Positions 46,822-56,232 of a DNA stretch of 64,000 nt are shown in pieces. Origin of the DNA: an uncultured virus (IMG/VR IMGVR_UViG_2061766007_000205) (taxonomy: Duplodnaviria > Heunggongvirae > Uroviricota > Caudoviricetes); IMG/VR virus record IMGVR_UViG_2061766007_000205; one strand, given 5' to 3'. The position numbers were made by a program, and so were the translations under genes. The first letter of the stretch is position 1, and each line of letters starts with the position of its first letter. The notes under the pieces were generated by a model. It made no database searches, had not been told where the DNA came from, and saw nothing but the letters and a program-made list of their open reading frames with translations.

Positions 46822-47150
46822 ATATGGCNNNNNNNNNNNNNNNNNNNNNNNNNNNNNNNNNNNNNNNNNNNNNNNNNNNNNNNNNAAAGCACAGTTCTTC
46901 TCGCAGAAGTTCAATGTAGCATTACCGCAGAACATAAATACGGGGTACGATGCCGTACAGTTTATGCTTAACAAAGGTATGCTCACGCAGGANNNNNNNN
47001 NNGAATAGGGGCAGATAACCGTTATTAAACAAAAGTGGCTTCTATTTTACTTAATTCGTTCAATCTAACTCTTATTTAACTTGGTTTTAATTAGATTATC
47101 GAGATAAATCCGCAAATATGCGAGTTAAATTGTTGAATTAGAATATTTTG

Positions 47151-47240
47151 ATATTAGGCCAAGTGCGCATAGGCTTGATATACCGACTATCCGACAAGAG
47201 GATAGCCGCTAACCTTAAACAACTAAAGGAAGGAGAAAAT
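47151..47240 (+). ncRNA. Structured 5' leader RNA, variant 1
   Basis: Two stems covary with the copy at 50850; invariant loop AAGTGCGCATA. Confidence 0.7.
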
Positions 47241-48143
47241 TGAATATGGCTTTAGACAATGGTAATACTTCGATGTACATGCCCGTTGCTCCGGCTTACA
47301 ATGGCGGNNNNNNNNNNTACCACTTACGAAGCAGAACAGAAGATAGAAAACGGAACAGGAAACGCAATTATAACAGACGGGGTACACATCAATGGCACGG
47401 ATAACGCAGAGTGTGAGAGTAACAACTAGAATGAGAGTAAATAAGATGCACGTTGGGATGCACCCGTGTCCGAACTGTAAGGGTGTAGGAATGGTGAAGA
47501 ATGTAGGGCGTGGAGCAAAGAAGCGATGNNNNNNNNNNAAATAGGGGGAAATAACCCTTATTAAACAAAAACCGCTTTAATTTTGCTTAACTCAATCATT
47601 TTATCTCATATTTAACTCGGTTTAACTTAATTGTTGAGTTAAGAATGAGTTAATTCAAGTTATTAAGGCAAGTGCGCATAGCCTTGATATACGGACGGCA
47701 CATAACGTGANNNNNNNNNNAAAGAGTACAGTAATTCGGCTGTAAACAGAGTTATAGACGAATACATACATTCATCAAGAGATAGGAATATTATGAAACG
47801 GCGTATGATTGATGGCGTATGCTTTGAACCATTAGCCGAAGAAATGAATATGTCCGTATCACAAATAAAACGGATAGTACATAAACACGAAATTAAGATT
47901 TTCGACCATTTATGATCCGAAAATGATACATAAATAGATTGATTAAGACCTCGATTATTCGGGGTCTTTTTTTTATGCTTAAAAAGGCGAGGTGATAAAA
48001 ATGGATGTAAAAAAATTATGTAGCAAAGTATTAGAGAATGAGGATGTTAAAGACATACCTCTTATTTTCGTGCTTATTGTAATAAACAGCGTAATTGAAG
48101 CTATTTCATCAGGCGAGTGTTTTTATCAAACGGAGTATGACTA

Positions 48144-48530
48144 ATGTATAGCGAGTTGAATATTAACCCGGAGAAGAAATTGACAGGCGATTGCGTTATT
48201 AGAGCAATCGGAGTAGTGACGGATAAAGATTGGGATGATGTCTACCTTGATCTTTGTTTGCATAAAGGTTTTGCAATGAAACAAATGCCATCGGAAAACA
48301 GCGTATGGGGGTCTTACCTTCACGATCTTGGCTTCAAACGGCATTCAATAGAGGACACATGCCCTGATTGTTATACAGTTAGAGATTTTGTAAAAGATCA
48401 TCCGATAGGAAGATTTGTTTTAGGAACGGGAACACATGCAATCGGCGTTGTAGATGGAACGTATTTTGATACTACCGATACAGGTGATGAAGTCCCGCAA
48501 TATTACTTTGAAAAGGAGAACATACAATGA
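48144..48530 (+). CDS. Peptidase-like protein (variant of 45961-46347)
   Basis: Close homolog; Cys/His/Asp conserved. Confidence 0.55.
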   Translation: MYSELNINPEKKLTGDCVIRAIGVVTDKDWDDVYLDLCLHKGFAMKQMPSENSVWGSYLHDLGFKRHSIEDTCPDCYTVRDFVKDHPIGRFVLGTGTHAIGVVDGTYFDTTDTGDEVPQYYFEKENIQ

Positions 48531-48832
48531 TTACACCTTATCCTATGTATCAGGGTTATCCACAGTACCCGGTACAGATGCCAACACAAAATAACGCATA
48601 TCCAACACAGATGAACGTTGGAGCAACGCAACAGAACGTAAATCCGAACGTTGGAACACCGCAGATTCAGGATGGCGGCTTTGTCATTATACCTGATGAA
48701 AAGGATGTACTGACATATCCCGTACAGCCGGGGCATTGTGTGAGGTTTAAGGTTGTTGGAAAACCTATCTACTTTGAGAAGACNNNNNNNNNNTAAGAAC
48801 GTAGGAAGAGGTGCAAGAAAAAGATAACAGTT

Positions 48833-48994
48833 CTATTTTATAGGGTTGTTTTTTATATACTCCGTAATTGCCCTATCTATCAATTTACTTATTGGGATCA
48901 TAGTTTTTTCAGAGTAATATTTCAATTCCTTAACTACTTCCTTATCAAGCGTTGTAGAGAATCGTTCGCGATTTTTCAATGTATTGTCTGACAT
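48833..48994 (-). CDS. Ribbon-helix-helix protein, 53 aa
   Basis: MSDNTLKNRERFSTTLDKEVVKELKYYSEKTMIPISKLIDRAITEYIK; AAAGGAGA SD; divergent from HNH gene. Confidence 0.7.
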   Translation of the reverse strand: MSDNTLKNRERFSTTLDKEVVKELKYYSEKTMIPISKLIDRAITEYIKNNPIK

Positions 48995-49104
48995 AGTGTA
49001 TCTCCTTTATGTTAATTAACGTTAACACATTTTAATGTTGAAAACAATACTATTATATGTTATAGTTAATTAAGGTTAAATAACATTAAATAAAGGAGAT
49101 AAAT

Positions 49105-49884
49105 ATGGCAACTGATTATACAGACTACACAGGACAGCGTTTTGGCAGATTGTTAGTTATAGGGAAAGAACCCGGTAGCCGTGCAAGATGGATATGTCAA
49201 TGTGATTGTGGCAATCAAAAAACAATGTATGCTTACTTCCTAAAAAAAACAAAGAGTTGTGGGTGTTTAGAAAAAGAAAACAGACAATCTATTGGTAAGA
49301 GATTACAAACTCATGGAAAGACAAACACGATACTGTATTCAAAGTATTGTAGCATGAAAATGCGGATTCACAATCCGAATTATAAGCACTACGATAGGTA
49401 CGGGGGAAGGGGAATTAAGATATGTGACGAATGGGAAAACTCATTTGAAGCATTTTATGAATGGGCGTATAAAAACGGATTTGACGATAATAAAAAGGGT
49501 TATGAGCAGACCCTTGATAGAATAGATGTCAACGGAGATTATGAACCGAATAATTGTAGATGGGTAAACCAAAAGGAGCAGTCAAACAATAAAGGATGCA
49601 CCCGTTATGTAGACTATAAAGGGCAAAAAGTACCCCTTTCTGTTTTTTGTGAGCAACATGGGATTACTCATCATAAGTTTGTAACTCGTGGACTTGACGA
49701 TAATAAGACACCAGAACAAATTATAGAAGAATGGAACGATATACACGGTGGTAAATATATGTCACCGCAAGAAGCGGCTGATTTTTACGGAGTAAAAAAA
49801 TCAACCATACATTCTTGGATAAGATCAGGTAAACTTAAAGCCAAAAAGCTAAAGTTTTATGTATTGATACCAAAAGAACAGTAA
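49105..49884 (+). CDS. Free-standing HNH-type endonuclease with C-terminal HTH
   Basis: GQRFGRL, CQCDCGN, YGGRGI, TLDRIDVNGDYEPNNCRW; C-terminal EAADFYGVKKSTIHSWI. Confidence 0.8.
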   Translation: MATDYTDYTGQRFGRLLVIGKEPGSRARWICQCDCGNQKTMYAYFLKKTKSCGCLEKENRQSIGKRLQTHGKTNTILYSKYCSMKMRIHNPNYKHYDRYGGRGIKICDEWENSFEAFYEWAYKNGFDDNKKGYEQTLDRIDVNGDYEPNNCRWVNQKEQSNNKGCTRYVDYKGQKVPLSVFCEQHGITHHKFVTRGLDDNKTPEQIIEEWNDIHGGKYMSPQEAADFYGVKKSTIHSWIRSGKLKAKKLKFYVLIPKEQ

Positions 49885-50455
49885 GGGAGAAAAAGCAATC
49901 TCAATGAGGTTGCTTTTTTATGCTATGAAAGAATATACCAACACGGACATATCGAACGTGATAGACGAGTACATTCACAATGAACGTGATCGCCGGATAT
50001 TGAAGAGACGTTATATAGACGGACGATGCTATGAGCCGTTGGCAGAAGAATTTGATATGTCAGTATCACAGATAAAAAGAGTAATTCATAAACATGAGTA
50101 TACGATATTCGATCACTTATGAACCGAATTTGACCTGAAAGATAGACAGTTATGACCTCGCAAAAGCGGGGTCTTTTTTTTATGCTTAAAAGCAAGGGAG
50201 AGTNNNNNNNNNNAGCAAGTTACTCACAGTTTGAAGACCCGAAGATTGATAGGTACAGACTTGTTAAGGAAGAAGACGAAAACGAAAAGCCGAAACCGAG
50301 TATCACAAAAGAAGACTTTGATTCCGTAATGGATGAATTGGATGCTTTAAGATCAGACTTTGACGAGATAAGGGGTGACATCAATGCCCTTAAAGAAACA
50401 AAGGATCAACCCGTCAAGAAGACGGCAAGAAGACATACGGATGGAGATGATTGAT

Positions 50456-50692
50456 ATGGCAGGAAACATGAACGATTTTATGAACCTTTGTGATGAAATG
50501 CTGAAAGCACCTGACAAGGCACAGTTCTTCTCACAGAAGTTCAATGTGAAATTACCGCAGAACATAAACACCGGGTACGATGCCGTACAGTTTATGCTTA
50601 ATAGAGGTATGCTCACGCAGGATCAGGTAAACAATGCTATGAAAATGAGCAATCATCCAATATTTCAGAAGTTTATGAATAGGGGCAGATAA
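50456..50692 (+). CDS. Small Met/Asn/Gln-rich protein of the accessory operon
   Basis: MAGNMNDF...DAVQFMLNRGMLTQDQVNNA; variant fragments at 46886-46992 and 51481-51648. Confidence 0.6.
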   Translation: MAGNMNDFMNLCDEMLKAPDKAQFFSQKFNVKLPQNINTGYDAVQFMLNRGMLTQDQVNNAMKMSNHPIFQKFMNRGR

Positions 50693-50849
50693 CCGTTATT
50701 AAACAAAAATGGCTTCTATTTTACTTAATTCGTTCGATTTAACTCTTATTTAACTCGATTTAACTAATCTAACGAGTTAAACACGAATAAAACACCCGCT
50801 ACGCACCATTCGGTGTTTCACGGGTTCACATATATTATATACCATTTTG

Positions 50850-50940
50850 ATATTAAGGCAAGTGCGCATAGCCTTGATATACGGACGGCACATAACGTGA
50901 GTGCCGCCCCTAACCTTAAACAACTAAAGGAAGGAGATAA
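50850..50940 (+). ncRNA. Structured 5' leader RNA, variant 2 (partial third copy at 47661-47710)
   Basis: Compensatory base changes relative to 47151-47240. Confidence 0.7.
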
Positions 50941-50946
50941 TTGAAT

Positions 50947-51470
50947 ATGGCTTTAGAAAATGGATCATCAATGTATATGCCCGTTGCTCCGGCTTATGGT
51001 AACGGTGGCGGTTTTGGTGGCTTTGGTAACGATTGGGGTTGGATCATCCTTCTGCTTCTCTTCGCTAATGGCGGTATGTGGGGCATGAATGGTGGTATGT
51101 GGGGTATGGAAGGACTCTACCCGTGGATGAACAACTCACAGAACATCAACAACGGCTTCCGCGATCAGATGCTCAATGACAACATTACGTCTATTCGTGA
51201 CGGTGTTCAGGGCATTTCTACACAGCTTTGCAACGGTCTTGCTTCGATTGAGCAGGGCGCAAATGCACGTCAGATGGCAGATATGCAACAGATGTTTGCT
51301 ATTCAGAGTTCATTGCAGAATTGTTGCTGTGAAAACCGCGCCGGAATCGCAGACCTCAAATATACGGTTGCAACGGAGAATTGCGCAGATCGTACAGCCG
51401 CTTATCAGAACACACAGGCAATCATCGAAGCAGGAAACAGAAACAGTCAGGCAATCCTTGACAAACTCTG
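50947..51470 (+). CDS. Gly/aromatic-rich, TM, coiled-coil protein with CCC motif; intron-less allele (runs into gap)
   Basis: GGGFGG..WGWIILLLLF..QNCCCENRAGIADLKY. Confidence 0.75.
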
Positions 51471-51756
51471 NNNNNNNNNNCCCCAACAAGGCGCAGTTCT
51501 TCTCGCAGAAGTTCAACGTAGCATTACCGCAGAACATAAACACCGGGTACGATGCCGTACAGTTTATGCTTAACAAAGGTATGCTCACGCAGGATCAGGT
51601 GAACAATGCTATGAAAATGAGCAATCATCCGTTGTTTCAAAGGTTTATNNNNNNNNNNNNNNNNNNNNNNNNNNNNNNNNNNNNNNNNNNNNNNNNNNNN
51701 NNNNNNNNNNNNNNNNNNNNNNNNNNGACCTTATAAAAGTTGAAAGGAGAAAAGAA

Positions 51757-52135
51757 ATGGCTTTAGACAATGGAACAATGTATATGCCTGTTGCTCCTGC
51801 CTACAATGGCGGTGGTTTTGGCGGCATGGGAACTGATGGATGGTGGGTATTACTTCTGCTTCTTTTCGCAGGTGGCGGTTGGGGCATGAATGGCTTCGGC
51901 GGCGGTATGTGGGGTATGGACGGACTCTACCCGTGGATGAATAACTCACAGAACATCAACAACGGCTTCCGCGATCAGATGCTTAATGACAATATCACGT
52001 CTATTCGTGATGGAGTACAGGGCATTTCAACACAGCTTTGCAACGGCTTCGCTTCAATAGAGCAGGGCGCAAATGCAAGACAGATGGCAGATATGCAACA
52101 GATGTTCTCGTTACAGAGCGCATTACAGCAGTGCT
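51757..52135 (+). CDS. Exon 1 of the intron-containing allele of the CCC protein
   Basis: Colinear with the 50947 allele up to QQC; ends in T at the predicted 5' splice site. Confidence 0.85.
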
Positions 52136-53427
52136 TGAAGAAAATCTCTAATAGAGCCAAAGAGATTTTCGGCTTCATAAATTTTGAAACAGTAGGCACT
52201 TTAGCGGCGTAATCCGCTATGGCAATCGGGTGAATTGCTGGAAAACCTACGTCTACGCTTTACTTTCGCATTAAAATAATGTATAATTAGATAAGAATAT
52301 GCGGAGGTAAAATATATGTACTATGTTTATGAATGGTTTATTATTGAAACGGGAGAGATTATTTATGTAGGCAAGGGAACAAACCTTCGATATAAAGTCA
52401 GAAAGCATAATAAATTCTTTAATGAGATGATAAACCGATTTGATTGTGACAGTAGAATTGTAAAATCTTTTGAGAATGAAGAGGACGCTTTTGCTTATGA
52501 GTATGATCGGGTCAAAGAGTTAAAAGAGCAAGGACAATGTGTCTGCAATATTTATAATGGTGGTTCTGGTGGTACAACAGAATGGTGGACGAAAGATTTA
52601 CGAAAGAGTTATTCAGAACACAATGTTATGAAGTCTGAAAAACAACGTCAAAGGATGTCTGCCAATAACCCCATGAAGGACAAAAACGTTTCCCGAAAAG
52701 TAGGGGAAAAGAAAAGTAGAGCCGTTATTATAGGGGAAAAAGAGTATTCTTCTATAAAAGCCGCTTGCAATGAATTAAATGTTTGTTGGGATGTTATTGC
52801 TAATTGGTGCAAAAAAGGGATAAATCCTTACGGGGCGAAATGTCGTTACAAAGATTCAGCACAAAAAGTATTCTCCGGCAAACGCTATAACGTAGGTAGT
52901 AGCAAGCCTGTAATCTATAAAGAGAAAAGATATGAAAGCGTTATTGATTTTGCTAATGAAGTAGGTATCTCTATTAGAACAGCTTGCGAGTGGTTAAAAA
53001 GAGGTTTTAACCCACAAGGAATACCTTGCAGATACGAAAATGATACAAAGGAATTTAACTTTGTCAACCGACACAAAGCACGAAATGAAGCAAAAGCAAA
53101 GACCGTAATTGTTAATGATGTAGAGTATAAGAATTGTGATGAAGCAAGTAAAATGCTTAATATTCCAAAAAGTACACTCTATTCATACTTACAAGGTAAA
53201 AGACATAGTACAAAATATATATGTAGATATGGCAATCAGCAGCCAAGCCTTACGAAATCCGATAACAGTAGTAAGGAAGGTTCAACGACTAATGGGTGAG
53301 GACGGAAACCAATAAACCCGACACGAGTTCCCGACCCCTACTCTAATAGAGAGGGTGAAGATATAGTCTGAACTTACGATGAAAACGTAAGATGTATAGG
53401 ATAAAGAGCCTATACGATAACATAATG
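52136..53427 (+). mobile_element. Group I self-splicing intron (IA-like), 1292 nt
   Basis: P AATTGCTGGAAA, Q AATCAGCAG, R GTTCAACGACTA, S AAGATATAGTCT; P1 with U-G pair; terminal G; removal restores QQCCCDNRSNIADLKY. Confidence 0.93.
52316..53299 (+). CDS. Intron-encoded GIY-YIG homing endonuclease
   Basis: YVY-(x10)-IYVGKG...R N-terminal motif; repeated small DNA-binding modules; GGAGGT SD. Confidence 0.85.
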   Translation: MYYVYEWFIIETGEIIYVGKGTNLRYKVRKHNKFFNEMINRFDCDSRIVKSFENEEDAFAYEYDRVKELKEQGQCVCNIYNGGSGGTTEWWTKDLRKSYSEHNVMKSEKQRQRMSANNPMKDKNVSRKVGEKKSRAVIIGEKEYSSIKAACNELNVCWDVIANWCKKGINPYGAKCRYKDSAQKVFSGKRYNVGSSKPVIYKEKRYESVIDFANEVGISIRTACEWLKRGFNPQGIPCRYENDTKEFNFVNRHKARNEAKAKTVIVNDVEYKNCDEASKMLNIPKSTLYSYLQGKRHSTKYICRYGNQQPSLTKSDNSSKEGSTTNG

Positions 53428-53823
53428 GCTGTGACAATCGGTCAAATATTGCAGACCTCAAGTACACGGTCGCAACGGAAAATTGCGCAGATCGTACAGC
53501 GGCATATCAGAACACACAGGCGATCATCGAAGCAGGAAACAGAAACAGTCAGGCAATNNNNNNNNNNTTGTCAGCTTGAACTCGACAATGTTAAGCAGGA
53601 TAACGCTAACCTTCGCACACAGCTCAATATGGCGAACCTTGCGGCAAGTCAGACGGCACAGACAGCGGAGCTTCGTACTGCAAACGCAACACAGTTAAAC
53701 AACCTCGTATCAGAACTTCGCGCTTGTCCTATCCCGGCACAGCCCGTGTATGGGTCACAGCCGATCTTCACTTGCGGCGGTAACAACGGTTGCGGATGTA
53801 GCGGAAACGCTTTCTATAACTGA
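53428..53823 (+). CDS. Exon 2 of the CCC protein (10-N gap at 53558)
   Basis: CDNRSNIADLKYTVATENCADR...; C-terminus CPIPAQPVY..CGGNNGCGC. Confidence 0.8.
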   Translation, partial: AVTIGQILQTSSTRSQRKIAQIVQRHIRTHRRSSKQETETVRQXXXXCQLELDNVKQDNANLRTQLNMANLAASQTAQTAELRTANATQLNNLVSELRACPIPAQPVYGSQPIFTCGGNNGCGCSGNAFYN

Positions 53824-55372: not shown

Positions 55373-55828
55373 ATGGCGAGGTATATTACAACAAGTGACG
55401 TTCTCGTGGCGTTAAACAACACGATTCCGTTCAATAGTGTATCTATCCCTTGCAACAAAGGATGTGTAATTCCGCTTGCATCAGGGGTTCTTACCTTAAA
55501 AGGCAACACAACTAATAGGTTTGCGCGGTACAACGTGACGGTACAGGGCAATATAGCCATTCCCGAAGGCGGGGATGTAACGCCGATAGCGGTAGGTATA
55601 AGCGTTAACGGGTCAGTAATACCTGAAAGCGTGGCTATCGTCACTCCGGCGGCGGCAGAAGAGTTTACCCACATCAACACGTCTGTTCCTATAACCGTAC
55701 CTTGCGGATGCTGTGTATCGGTATCGGCGGTATATGTTGACGGAACAGAGGACGATGCGGCAACTGTACCTACACCGTCAATCACGGTAAGACGTGAAGC
55801 GTCAATAACGGTTGAGAGAATAGCATAG
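55373..55828 (+). CDS. Beta-sandwich protein, possibly BclA-C/TNF-like (variant fragments 53840-54236, 54887-55101)
   Basis: Alternating hydrophobic beta pattern (IPFN, YNVTVQGNI, ASITVERIA); PCGCC. Confidence 0.55.
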   Translation: MARYITTSDVLVALNNTIPFNSVSIPCNKGCVIPLASGVLTLKGNTTNRFARYNVTVQGNIAIPEGGDVTPIAVGISVNGSVIPESVAIVTPAAAEEFTHINTSVPITVPCGCCVSVSAVYVDGTEDDAATVPTPSITVRREASITVERIA

Positions 55829-55842
55829 AAAGGAGAAACACG

Positions 55843-56232
55843 ATGCACAAAATACAGATGTATGAAAATCTCCGTGATATGCTTGAGCAGGAAGTAACGG
55901 AGATCGAGAGAAAAGGAAGTCTGGACGCACAGAGTTTAGATCACCTTTATAAACTCATGGCAACCTTAAAGAACACGGACAAGTGCATTGAACGTGAAGA
56001 GGGCGGCTCAAGTTACGGCAGGAACTACAACATGAGGGGTAGTTATATGCCTGATATGATGAGCCGTGACAACTTTCGTGATAGTTCGTATAGAGGAAGG
56101 TCGTATGACGGGCGCTCCTATGACAGAGAGAACGCGCGGCAGAAGATGATTGACAGGCTCAATATGCTTATGGATGAGGCCACGAACGACAACGAGAGAC
56201 AGGCAATCATGGATTGCATGAATAAAATTTAA
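55843..56232 (+). CDS. Helical protein with RGSY/GRSY low-complexity repeats
   Basis: AAGGAG SD; last gene of operon; terminator at 56242-56270. Confidence 0.65.
   Translation: MHKIQMYENLRDMLEQEVTEIERKGSLDAQSLDHLYKLMATLKNTDKCIEREEGGSSYGRNYNMRGSYMPDMMSRDNFRDSSYRGRSYDGRSYDRENARQKMIDRLNMLMDEATNDNERQAIMDCMNKI

What the first reader, a model, noticed from the sequence alone, without database searches (positions are those of the whole stretch)
47151..50940. Covarying structured leader RNA with an invariant palindromic loop upstream of the CCC-protein gene
Seen, comparing 47151-47240 with 50850-50940. Stem 1 (ATATTAGGCC/GGCTTGATAT vs ATATTAAGGC/GCCTTGATAT) has one compensatory and one G-U to A-U change around the invariant loop AAGTGCGCATA, which contains self-complementary TGCGCA. 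Stem 2 (CGACTATCC/GGATAGCCG vs GGACGGCAC/GTGCCGCCC) has five compensatory changes and keeps an A-C mismatch at the same position. A third small hairpin CCTT..AAGG abuts the SD. Inference: a cis-regulatory or protein-binding RNA; the palindromic loop could allow kissing-loop dimerisation.
Basis: partly seen in the sequence, partly recalled or inferred. Interest (0 to 1): 0.7.

Follow-up and report, generated by a model that had tools for sequence, protein, structure and literature searches.

The report
Self-pairing hairpin in phage mRNA leader
In front of one uncharacterised gene, many gut and rumen phages keep an RNA hairpin whose tip changes sequence but mostly stays self-complementary, much like the dimerisation signal of HIV, which suggests that two copies of this phage message pair with each other.

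Summary
P1 is a hairpin specific to the CCC gene (phrog_16490). Its loop is not invariant. Where P1 could be called without looking at the loop (120 of 206 leaders), 89 loops hold a palindrome of 6 nt or more, against 9.8 by chance. Eight hexamers occur, among them the HIV-1 GUGCAC. P1 gave one strong hit in 8 of 10 phage records, and no matching cis partner was found, so it most likely pairs in trans. P2-P3 is optional (72 of 206) and also stands, without P1, before capsid, tail and portal genes of other phages. The A-C mismatch is not conserved. The window copies are alleles in a scaffold, not paralogues. No Rfam or literature match was found. Dimerisation is inferred, not shown; about a fifth of leaders lack a 6-nt palindrome. 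This scan noted self-complementary leader loops before, on nuclease genes of other phages (e1-5667799, e1-5868531), and noted this cassette (e1-2902565, e1-5940391).

The parts
47151..47181 (+). P1 hairpin, allele a; 11-nt loop 47161-47171 with self-complementary GTGCGCAT (47163-47170, terminal G-U) and core TGCGCA
47184..47229 (+). P2 (47184-47208) and P3 (47209-47229), allele a; module shared with capsid and tail gene leaders
47230..47307 (+). SD (47230-47235) and start of the CCC gene (ATG 47246), cut by an N gap
47660..47710 (+).
50456..50692 (+). Upstream Q/N-rich small gene (family F3), the usual 5' neighbour of the leader
50693..50849 (+). Variable spacer with TTTAAC-type repeats that folds into a long hairpin (z -4.08 for 50690-50830); absent where P1 lies next to the F3 stop
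50850..50880 (+). P1 hairpin, allele c; loop 50860-50870
50883..50930 (+). P2 (50883-50909) and P3 (50910-50930), allele c
50931..51470 (+). SD (50931-50936) and CCC gene (ATG 50947; phrog_16490): Gly-rich, hydrophobic helix, long helices, CCC motif; continues at 53568 in public contigs
51727..52135 (+). Fourth allele: P3 and SD remnant, then exon 1 of CCC (ATG 51757); the rest of its leader is in the N run
55373..55828 (+). Downstream gene F5 (phrog_20016), BclA-CTD / TNF-C1q fold
55843..56232 (+). Downstream gene F2 with an Arg/Ser/Tyr/Gly/Asp-rich low-complexity middle
48144..48530 (+). Upstream gene F4 (phrog_3754) with invariant Cys17, His98, Asp109; papain-like enzyme inferred

Best explanation
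The stretch is an intercistronic element of a phage accessory operon (F4-F1-F3-[leader]-CCC-F5-F2) made of two modules. (1) P1 is a self-dimerisation hairpin. Two transcripts pair loop to loop through a 6-8 bp palindrome and can go on to an extended duplex of about 30 bp, as the HIV-1 DIS does. The structure, sense strand, palindrome covariation, single copy and lack of a cis partner are shown by comparison; pairing itself is inferred. (2) P2-P3 is an optional module shared with major capsid, major tail and portal genes. It is most likely a processing, stabilising or translation-boosting element for proteins needed in many copies (distribution shown, role inferred). Dimer formation rises with transcript concentration. 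The likeliest use is a threshold for CCC output: the long duplex, unlike the 10-bp monomer stem, could be an RNase III-type substrate or could change ribosome access to the SD, which lies about 20-35 nt from P1 in the short form. This last step is inference only (about 0.3 on its own).
For: Palindrome-blind loop test: 89 of 120 against a mean of 9.8 and a maximum of 19 in 1000 loop shuffles; hexamers TGCGCA 45, GTGCAC 18, GCGCGC 9, CGTACG 6, TGGCCA 4, TGTACA 3, TGATCA 3, CGGCCG 1. In the 11-nt RAG-N6-TA class all 31 loops are palindromic, in three variants. Pattern scans with loop positions left free: 14 of 14 palindromic, all before CCC; 12 of 12 CCC-linked (all GTGCAC) against 1 of 79 unlinked hits. 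Distant lineages: 18 of 22 representatives against a shuffle mean of 7.3, maximum 15 of 300. The 5' flank is a purine in 73 of 75 loops. Hexamer types are scattered over the protein tree: 41 changes against 46.9 shuffled, 94 rows. Palindromic hexamers are otherwise under-represented in these loci (median observed/expected 0.64). G-U to A-C on the + strand is 50:11 in P1 and 49:4 in P2 without pair 3. Stem covariation: 23 of 25 pairs change on both sides in two CM alignments. P1 gives one strong hit in 8 of 10 records. The own hexamer recurs nearby no more than shuffled labels give (6 of 89 upstream, 15 of 89 downstream). Predicted homodimer gain: median -14.9 kcal/mol against -6.0 loop-shuffled, -4.0 for P2 and 0.0 for mixed pairs.
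Against: No experiment. The only expression data are contigs from RNA libraries, which cannot show strand, ends or level. 39 of 206 leaders lack any of 13 hexamers that I listed after seeing the data; some have a sound P1 with an ordinary short loop (L090, L100, L102, L178, L201, L207), so dimerisation is dispensable there. P1 could be called blind in only 120 of 206 leaders. In many distant lineages the palindrome is a perfect 10-16 nt tip with a 4-nt loop, not an open kissing loop. The predicted extended dimer leaves P2, P3 and the SD pairing unchanged, so no direct SD switch is predicted. Tree changes may reflect recombination rather than independent mutation, and the tree is the quick one. 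RNAalifold found no consensus structure on the MAFFT alignment of short P1 pieces.
Confidence: 0.55

Rival explanations
1. P1 dimerises, but to cluster transcripts rather than to set expression. Paired messages bring polysomes together, or nucleate an RNP body with the low-complexity cassette proteins (F1, F2, F3), so that the coiled-coil CCC protein and the trimeric F5 head assemble where they are made. This would resemble oskar hitchhiking.
For: The same palindrome evidence. CCC is modelled as two long helices behind a hydrophobic helix. F5 has a trimer-type BclA/TNF fold, Z 16.5. F2 has Arg/Tyr/Gly/Ser repeats. The dimer leaves the SD region unchanged.
Against: No evidence that these proteins bind RNA or each other. 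A dimer of messages does not obviously serve a trimer. Leaders without a palindrome exist.
Confidence: 0.2
2. P1 is a monomeric hairpin whose loop is read by an RNA-binding protein or an RNase (translational operator, or selective processing as in the clostridial cip-cel operon). The palindrome is a by-product of a GC-centred loop motif.
For: Most loops share a G-C centre and many end in CA. An AU-rich linker follows P1. Intergenic stem-loops direct cleavage and stability in Ruminiclostridium (PMC10311766, abstract read). P2-P3 fits this kind of role well.
Against: At least eight hexamers, related by double changes, stay palindromic, while single-change non-palindromes are rare (CGGACG in 2 of 120). 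Loop length runs from 4 to 13 nt. A protein site would be expected to keep sequence, not symmetry.
Confidence: 0.15
3. The symmetry acts in DNA: an operator for a homodimeric regulator, or a cruciform, at the head of the CCC cistron.
For: Perfect 10-16 bp palindromes in distant lineages look like operators. The cassette region encodes small HTH and ribbon-helix-helix proteins.
Against: G-U exceeds A-C on one strand. Stems change freely with compensation and carry one-sided bulges. The palindrome is off-centre in the 11-nt loops. Sister proteins carry different hexamers (L059, L060). No significant + strand promoter match at the element.
Confidence: 0.08

Closest known systems
HIV-1 dimerisation initiation site (DIS, SL1)
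   Same: Hairpin with a 6-nt GC-rich palindrome flanked by purines. GUGCAC, the DIS sequence named in PMC7357161 (passages read), occurs in 18 of 120 loops. GCGCGC (the other DIS type, recalled, not from a call) occurs in 9. Kissing and extended duplex are both possible in the fold prediction.
   Different: It lies inside a phage operon mRNA, not a packaged RNA genome. Loop size and hexamer vary far more. No sequence or Rfam similarity. Dimerisation is not shown.
oskar 3' UTR palindromic kissing loop; bicoid domain III
   Same: mRNA homodimerisation through a 6-nt GC-rich palindromic loop (PMC7357161, passages).
   Different: Eukaryotic 3' UTR localisation signals; here the hairpin is 5' of a bacterial SD.
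phi29 prohead RNA; ROOL, GOLLD, OLE and ARRPOF oligomers
   Same: Phage or bacterial RNAs that oligomerise through kissing loops (PMC7357161, PMC12990946, passages).
   Different: These are free non-coding RNAs, and pRNA uses two different loops. This is a 30-nt mRNA hairpin with one self-complementary loop.
GP20-a/GP20-b (RF02991, RF03003) and other candidate leaders of phage structural genes
   Same: P2-P3 is a structured leader directly before phage head and tail genes, like those in PMC10690425 (passages).
   Different: No match to any Rfam family at E up to 10 on 17 loci that include these leaders. The downstream genes are major capsid, major tail, portal and CCC, not GP20.
Selective RNA processing and stabilisation stem-loops of the Ruminiclostridium cip-cel operon
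   Same: Intercistronic stem-loops in a clostridial operon that could set subunit ratios (PMC10311766 abstract; PMC4423207 search listing).
   Different: No dimerisation is described in what I read; cleavage at this leader is untested.

Membership tests
HIV-1 DIS-like homodimer hairpin (works like) | Self-complementary 6-nt sequence in the apical loop | tested here: met
   89 of 120 loops against 9.8 by chance
HIV-1 DIS-like homodimer hairpin (works like) | Palindrome kept through compensatory change | tested here: met
   Eight hexamers; free-position scans; scattered on the tree
HIV-1 DIS-like homodimer hairpin (works like) | Purines flanking the palindrome | tested here: met
   5' flank purine in 73 of 75; 3' flank A or G in 33, and T in 40, where it can extend the pairing by G-U
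HIV-1 DIS-like homodimer hairpin (works like) | Dimer forms in vitro and depends on the loop | not testable with these tools
   Only folding energies
Retroviral DIS (membership) | Part of a retroviral genomic RNA leader; Rfam match | tested here: not met
   Tailed DNA phage operon; no Rfam hit at the element at E up to 10
GP20-a / GP20-b motifs | Covariance-model match | tested here: not met
   No hit
GP20-a / GP20-b motifs | Directly upstream of a GP20 gene | tested here: not met
   Downstream genes: CCC, major head 7, major tail 2, portal 1, minor tail 1, unassigned 1 of 12 scanned
Selective processing and stabilisation stem-loops | Intercistronic stem-loop inside an operon | tested here: met
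   F3 is the nearest upstream gene in 162 of 190 loci, often with its stop a few bases from P1
Selective processing and stabilisation stem-loops | Mapped cleavage site and unequal transcript levels | not testable with these tools
   Only contigs, no raw reads
Intrinsic terminator | GC stem followed by a U run | tested here: not met
   None of P1-P3 is among the 19 terminator-like sites
Candidate RNAs of Fremin 2021/2023 and Weinberg 2017 | Identity with a listed candidate | tested here: inconclusive
   Four 10-nt probes not found in 6 supplementary files of PMC10690425, 3 files not searched; Weinberg supplement unreadable; Fremin 2021 supplements not searched

The most novel reading that the evidence does not exclude
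A tailed DNA phage uses a retrovirus-style dimerisation signal in an ordinary mRNA. The hexamer works as a self-recognition code, so that only transcripts of the same phage pair. The dimer counts transcript copies or nucleates an RNP assembly site for a stalk-and-head fibre (CCC plus the BclA-like F5). With similar loops noted on nuclease leaders elsewhere in this scan, mRNA homodimerisation would be a general, overlooked layer of phage gene control.
Probability: 0.3. Interest if true: 0.9.

Novelty: new variant of a known kind. Interest (0 to 1): 0.72.

Why it matters
Natural RNA homodimers are rare. The two reviews consulted list retroviral genomes, two fly mRNAs, phi29 pRNA, ribozymes, riboswitches and large non-coding RNAs; I saw no palindromic-loop dimer of a phage or bacterial mRNA leader in them (PMC7357161 outline and passages; PMC12990946 passages). 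A 30-nt hairpin with natural palindrome variants is cheap to test, and the cultured phage Ceridwen carries it with the same loop as this window. It also gives a handle on a large gene family of unknown function (1595 clusters at 50% identity). The P2-P3 module is a second uncatalogued RNA, tied to capsid and tail genes.

Tried and rejected
Rfam: nothing at gathering score in the window, and nothing at the element at E up to 10 or up to 1. Literature: searches gave no description of this leader, and search 62 none of the cassette; the library lacks most subscription papers. Two paralogous leaders kissing within one genome: rejected, because the copies are alleles and genomes hold one copy. In G004 and G013 only weak P1 hits (E 0.2-0.4) appeared, and I did not inspect them or a second weak hit in Ceridwen. 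A cis partner for the loop in the mRNA: rejected. P3 as a clear SD-occluding switch: not supported. In some variants the SD lies outside P3, and 15 leaders instead pair the base of P1 with the SD. CCC fold: no significant match (Foldseek viral best E 0.076; PDB sequences best E 0.048 to haemagglutinin HA2, taken as composition; Atlas only unnamed clusters). F4: no PDB or convincing Pfam hit; Peptidase_C39 on 11% of one Atlas cluster is a lead only. A trimer prediction for CCC could not be run, so its oligomeric state is open. Pattern D gave 3 unrelated hits. The crude tests (162 of 206 against 54-66 shuffled and 118 of 600 control leaders) were noisy and were replaced. The strand count used alignments A5 and A7 only (66 rows); A6 was left out. 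RNA runs held only 5-9% of the sampled words and were contigs, so they say nothing on level or ends. No whole genome is held for the window.
Full report
Setting. The window is an N-gapped scaffold (43 N runs) of a tailed phage: terminase, portal, capsid, tail and lysin genes, then an accessory cassette, an integrase-like gene and a repressor-like gene (these names are my reading of the sequences unless a family scan is cited). Many genes occur in several variant copies. Contigs of public runs join 51467 to 53568 (three of four runs) and 50911 to 51727 (one run), so the copies are alleles of related phages laid side by side. No whole genome is held.

Observation. A third copy lies at 47660-47710, cut by a gap. 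A fourth gene copy at 51757 has its leader in an N run.

Homologues. The downstream protein is phrog_16490, with 1595 clusters at 50% identity. I fetched 240 loci plus two annotated phages and extracted 219 leaders, 206 unique. The gene order F4-F1-F3-CCC-F5-F2 is conserved; F3 is the nearest upstream gene in 162 of 190 loci, often with its stop a few bases from P1. A covariance model of the full leader hit the + strand at CCC leaders, once per locus, apart from two hits at E 0.7-1. Stem covariation is strong. In the two model-fitted alignments counted, 23 of 25 pairs change on both sides, and 2 and 1 of 500 shuffles reach that number. These alignments lean towards the model. The unfitted MAFFT alignment gave 21 of 28 pairs, reached by 46 of 500 shuffles, with the other four measures at 0 of 500. 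G-U outnumbers A-C on the sense strand (50:11 in P1; 49:4 in P2 without pair 3), which favours sense RNA. Pair 3 of P2 is A-C in 23 of 66 rows only.

The loop. I called P1 by stem energy and the following AU linker, without looking at the loop. This worked for 120 of 206 leaders. 89 of the 120 loops contain a palindrome of 6 nt or more, against 9.8 +/- 2.9 (maximum 19) in 1000 loop shuffles. The hexamers are TGCGCA, GTGCAC, GCGCGC, CGTACG, TGGCCA, TGTACA, TGATCA and CGGCCG; short-loop variants add TTGCAA, CTGCAG and others. In the window's own 11-nt class all 31 loops are palindromic, and the pairing can extend to 8 bp through a G-U pair; in 10-12-nt relatives this end pair is A-U or G-C. Collection scans with loop positions left free gave 14 of 14 palindromic hits, all before CCC. 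A second pattern gave 12 of 12 CCC-linked hits palindromic (all one hexamer) against 1 of 79 unlinked. In 160 more distant loci, 18 of 22 non-redundant leaders carry such a palindrome (shuffle mean 7.3), mostly as a perfect 10-16 nt tip. On a quick tree of 94 CCC proteins the hexamer changes 41 times against 46.9 for shuffled labels; recombination may account for part of this. Palindromic hexamers are otherwise avoided in these loci. What is conserved is therefore symmetry, not sequence.

Partner. A P1 model gave one strong hit in 8 of 10 phage records and only weak hits in the other two. The loop's hexamer does not recur nearby more often than chance. The partner is thus most likely a second transcript. 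Predicted homodimers gain a median 14.9 kcal/mol, against 6.0 with shuffled loops, 4.0 for P2 hairpins and 0 for mixed pairs. For both window alleles the gain is 16.3, with P2, P3 and the SD unchanged.

Second module. P2-P3 is present in 72 of 206 CCC leaders. The same P2 occurs with different P1 (L001, L004, L380), and P2 can be repeated in tandem (Ceridwen). A scan for the P2-P3 junction found it, with no palindromic P1 seen, before other genes. Of 12 such proteins, 7 are major head, 2 major tail, 1 portal, 1 minor tail and 1 unassigned. One record has it before both its capsid and tail genes. In five CCC-bearing records it is single. SD accessibility behind P3 is unremarkable. I read P2-P3 as a high-output leader for abundant proteins. 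This is inference from gene context.

The proteins. CCC models as a hydrophobic helix and two long helices, with no fold match. F5 has the BclA-CTD/TNF fold (Z 16.5, rmsd 1.9, 125 aligned). F4 keeps Cys, His and Asp invariant. F2 has Arg/Ser/Tyr-rich repeats. This agrees with two earlier notes of this scan on the cassette. Its function is unknown.

Limits. 39 of 206 leaders lack the listed hexamers, some with an intact hairpin and an ordinary loop. RNAalifold found no structure on a sequence-only alignment of short P1 pieces. Nothing here shows dimers, expression level or cleavage.

Mechanism and rivals. Most likely P1 dimerises in trans, and the dimer acts as a concentration threshold on processing or translation of the CCC cistron, with P2-P3 raising output where present (0.55 for dimer plus post-transcriptional control; the RNase III step alone about 0.3). 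Rivals are transcript clustering for assembly (0.2), a monomeric protein or RNase site (0.15) and a DNA operator (0.08).

Prior knowledge. No Rfam family matches. Paper searches found no description. What I saw of each paper: passages and outline of PMC7357161; passages of PMC12990946, PMC8040213, PMC10690425 (plus 6 of its supplementary files; 3 not searched), PMC5737381 (supplement unreadable) and PMC7372960; the abstract of PMC10311766; the listing of PMC4423207. The element may be an unnamed entry among the thousands of candidates in supplements I could not see. It works like the HIV-1 DIS and the oskar loop but is not a member of either. Verdict: a real, uncatalogued RNA element; new variant of a known kind; interest 0.72.

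Noticed in passing
window 52136-53427 (+): A group I intron (RF00028, 48.1 bits, E 8e-11, gathering 50) with a GIY-YIG endonuclease ORF (52316-53299) interrupts one CCC allele inside the codons of the CCC motif; the exon ends in T and the intron in G. One public contig skips most of the ORF (52247 to 53227). No such R+S motif pair was found in L001-L240.
   Followed up: partly
L377, L381, L383, L402, L408, L423, L426, L453, L462, L464, L477, L490, L509: The P2-P3 module without P1 before major capsid, major tail, portal and tail genes of other phages; no Rfam match. It merits its own study.
   Followed up: partly
window 47010-47150, 47546-47659, 50693-50849; also L024, L026, L056: AT-rich spacers with TTTAAC-type repeats forming long imperfect hairpins between F3 and P1. 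Spacer length varies from a few to several hundred bases, suggesting small mobile insertions.
   Followed up: no
L002 839-904 (-): int-alpA RNA (RF02996, 44.2 bits, above gathering) just upstream of the leader on the opposite strand; similar sequence is seen in L012, L103 and L242.
   Followed up: no
L241 (Ceridwen), L254, L055, L335, L425: Two or three tandem P2-like hairpins between P1 and P3.
   Followed up: no
L008, L020, L028, L045, L048, L061, L064, L070, L081, L165, L166, L170, L225, L235, L239: A short-form subtype in which the base of P1 pairs directly with the SD over about 12 bp; the best candidates for a direct translational switch.
   Followed up: partly
window 48833-49884: A ribbon-helix-helix gene (-) and an HNH endonuclease gene (+) diverge from an AT-rich inverted repeat (49012-49073) inserted before the cassette's HTH gene.
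   Followed up: no
window 50834-50861 (-): A promoter-like match (10 of 12) on the minus strand overlaps the 5' arm of P1 in allele c; such matches were no more frequent than in shuffles.
   Followed up: no
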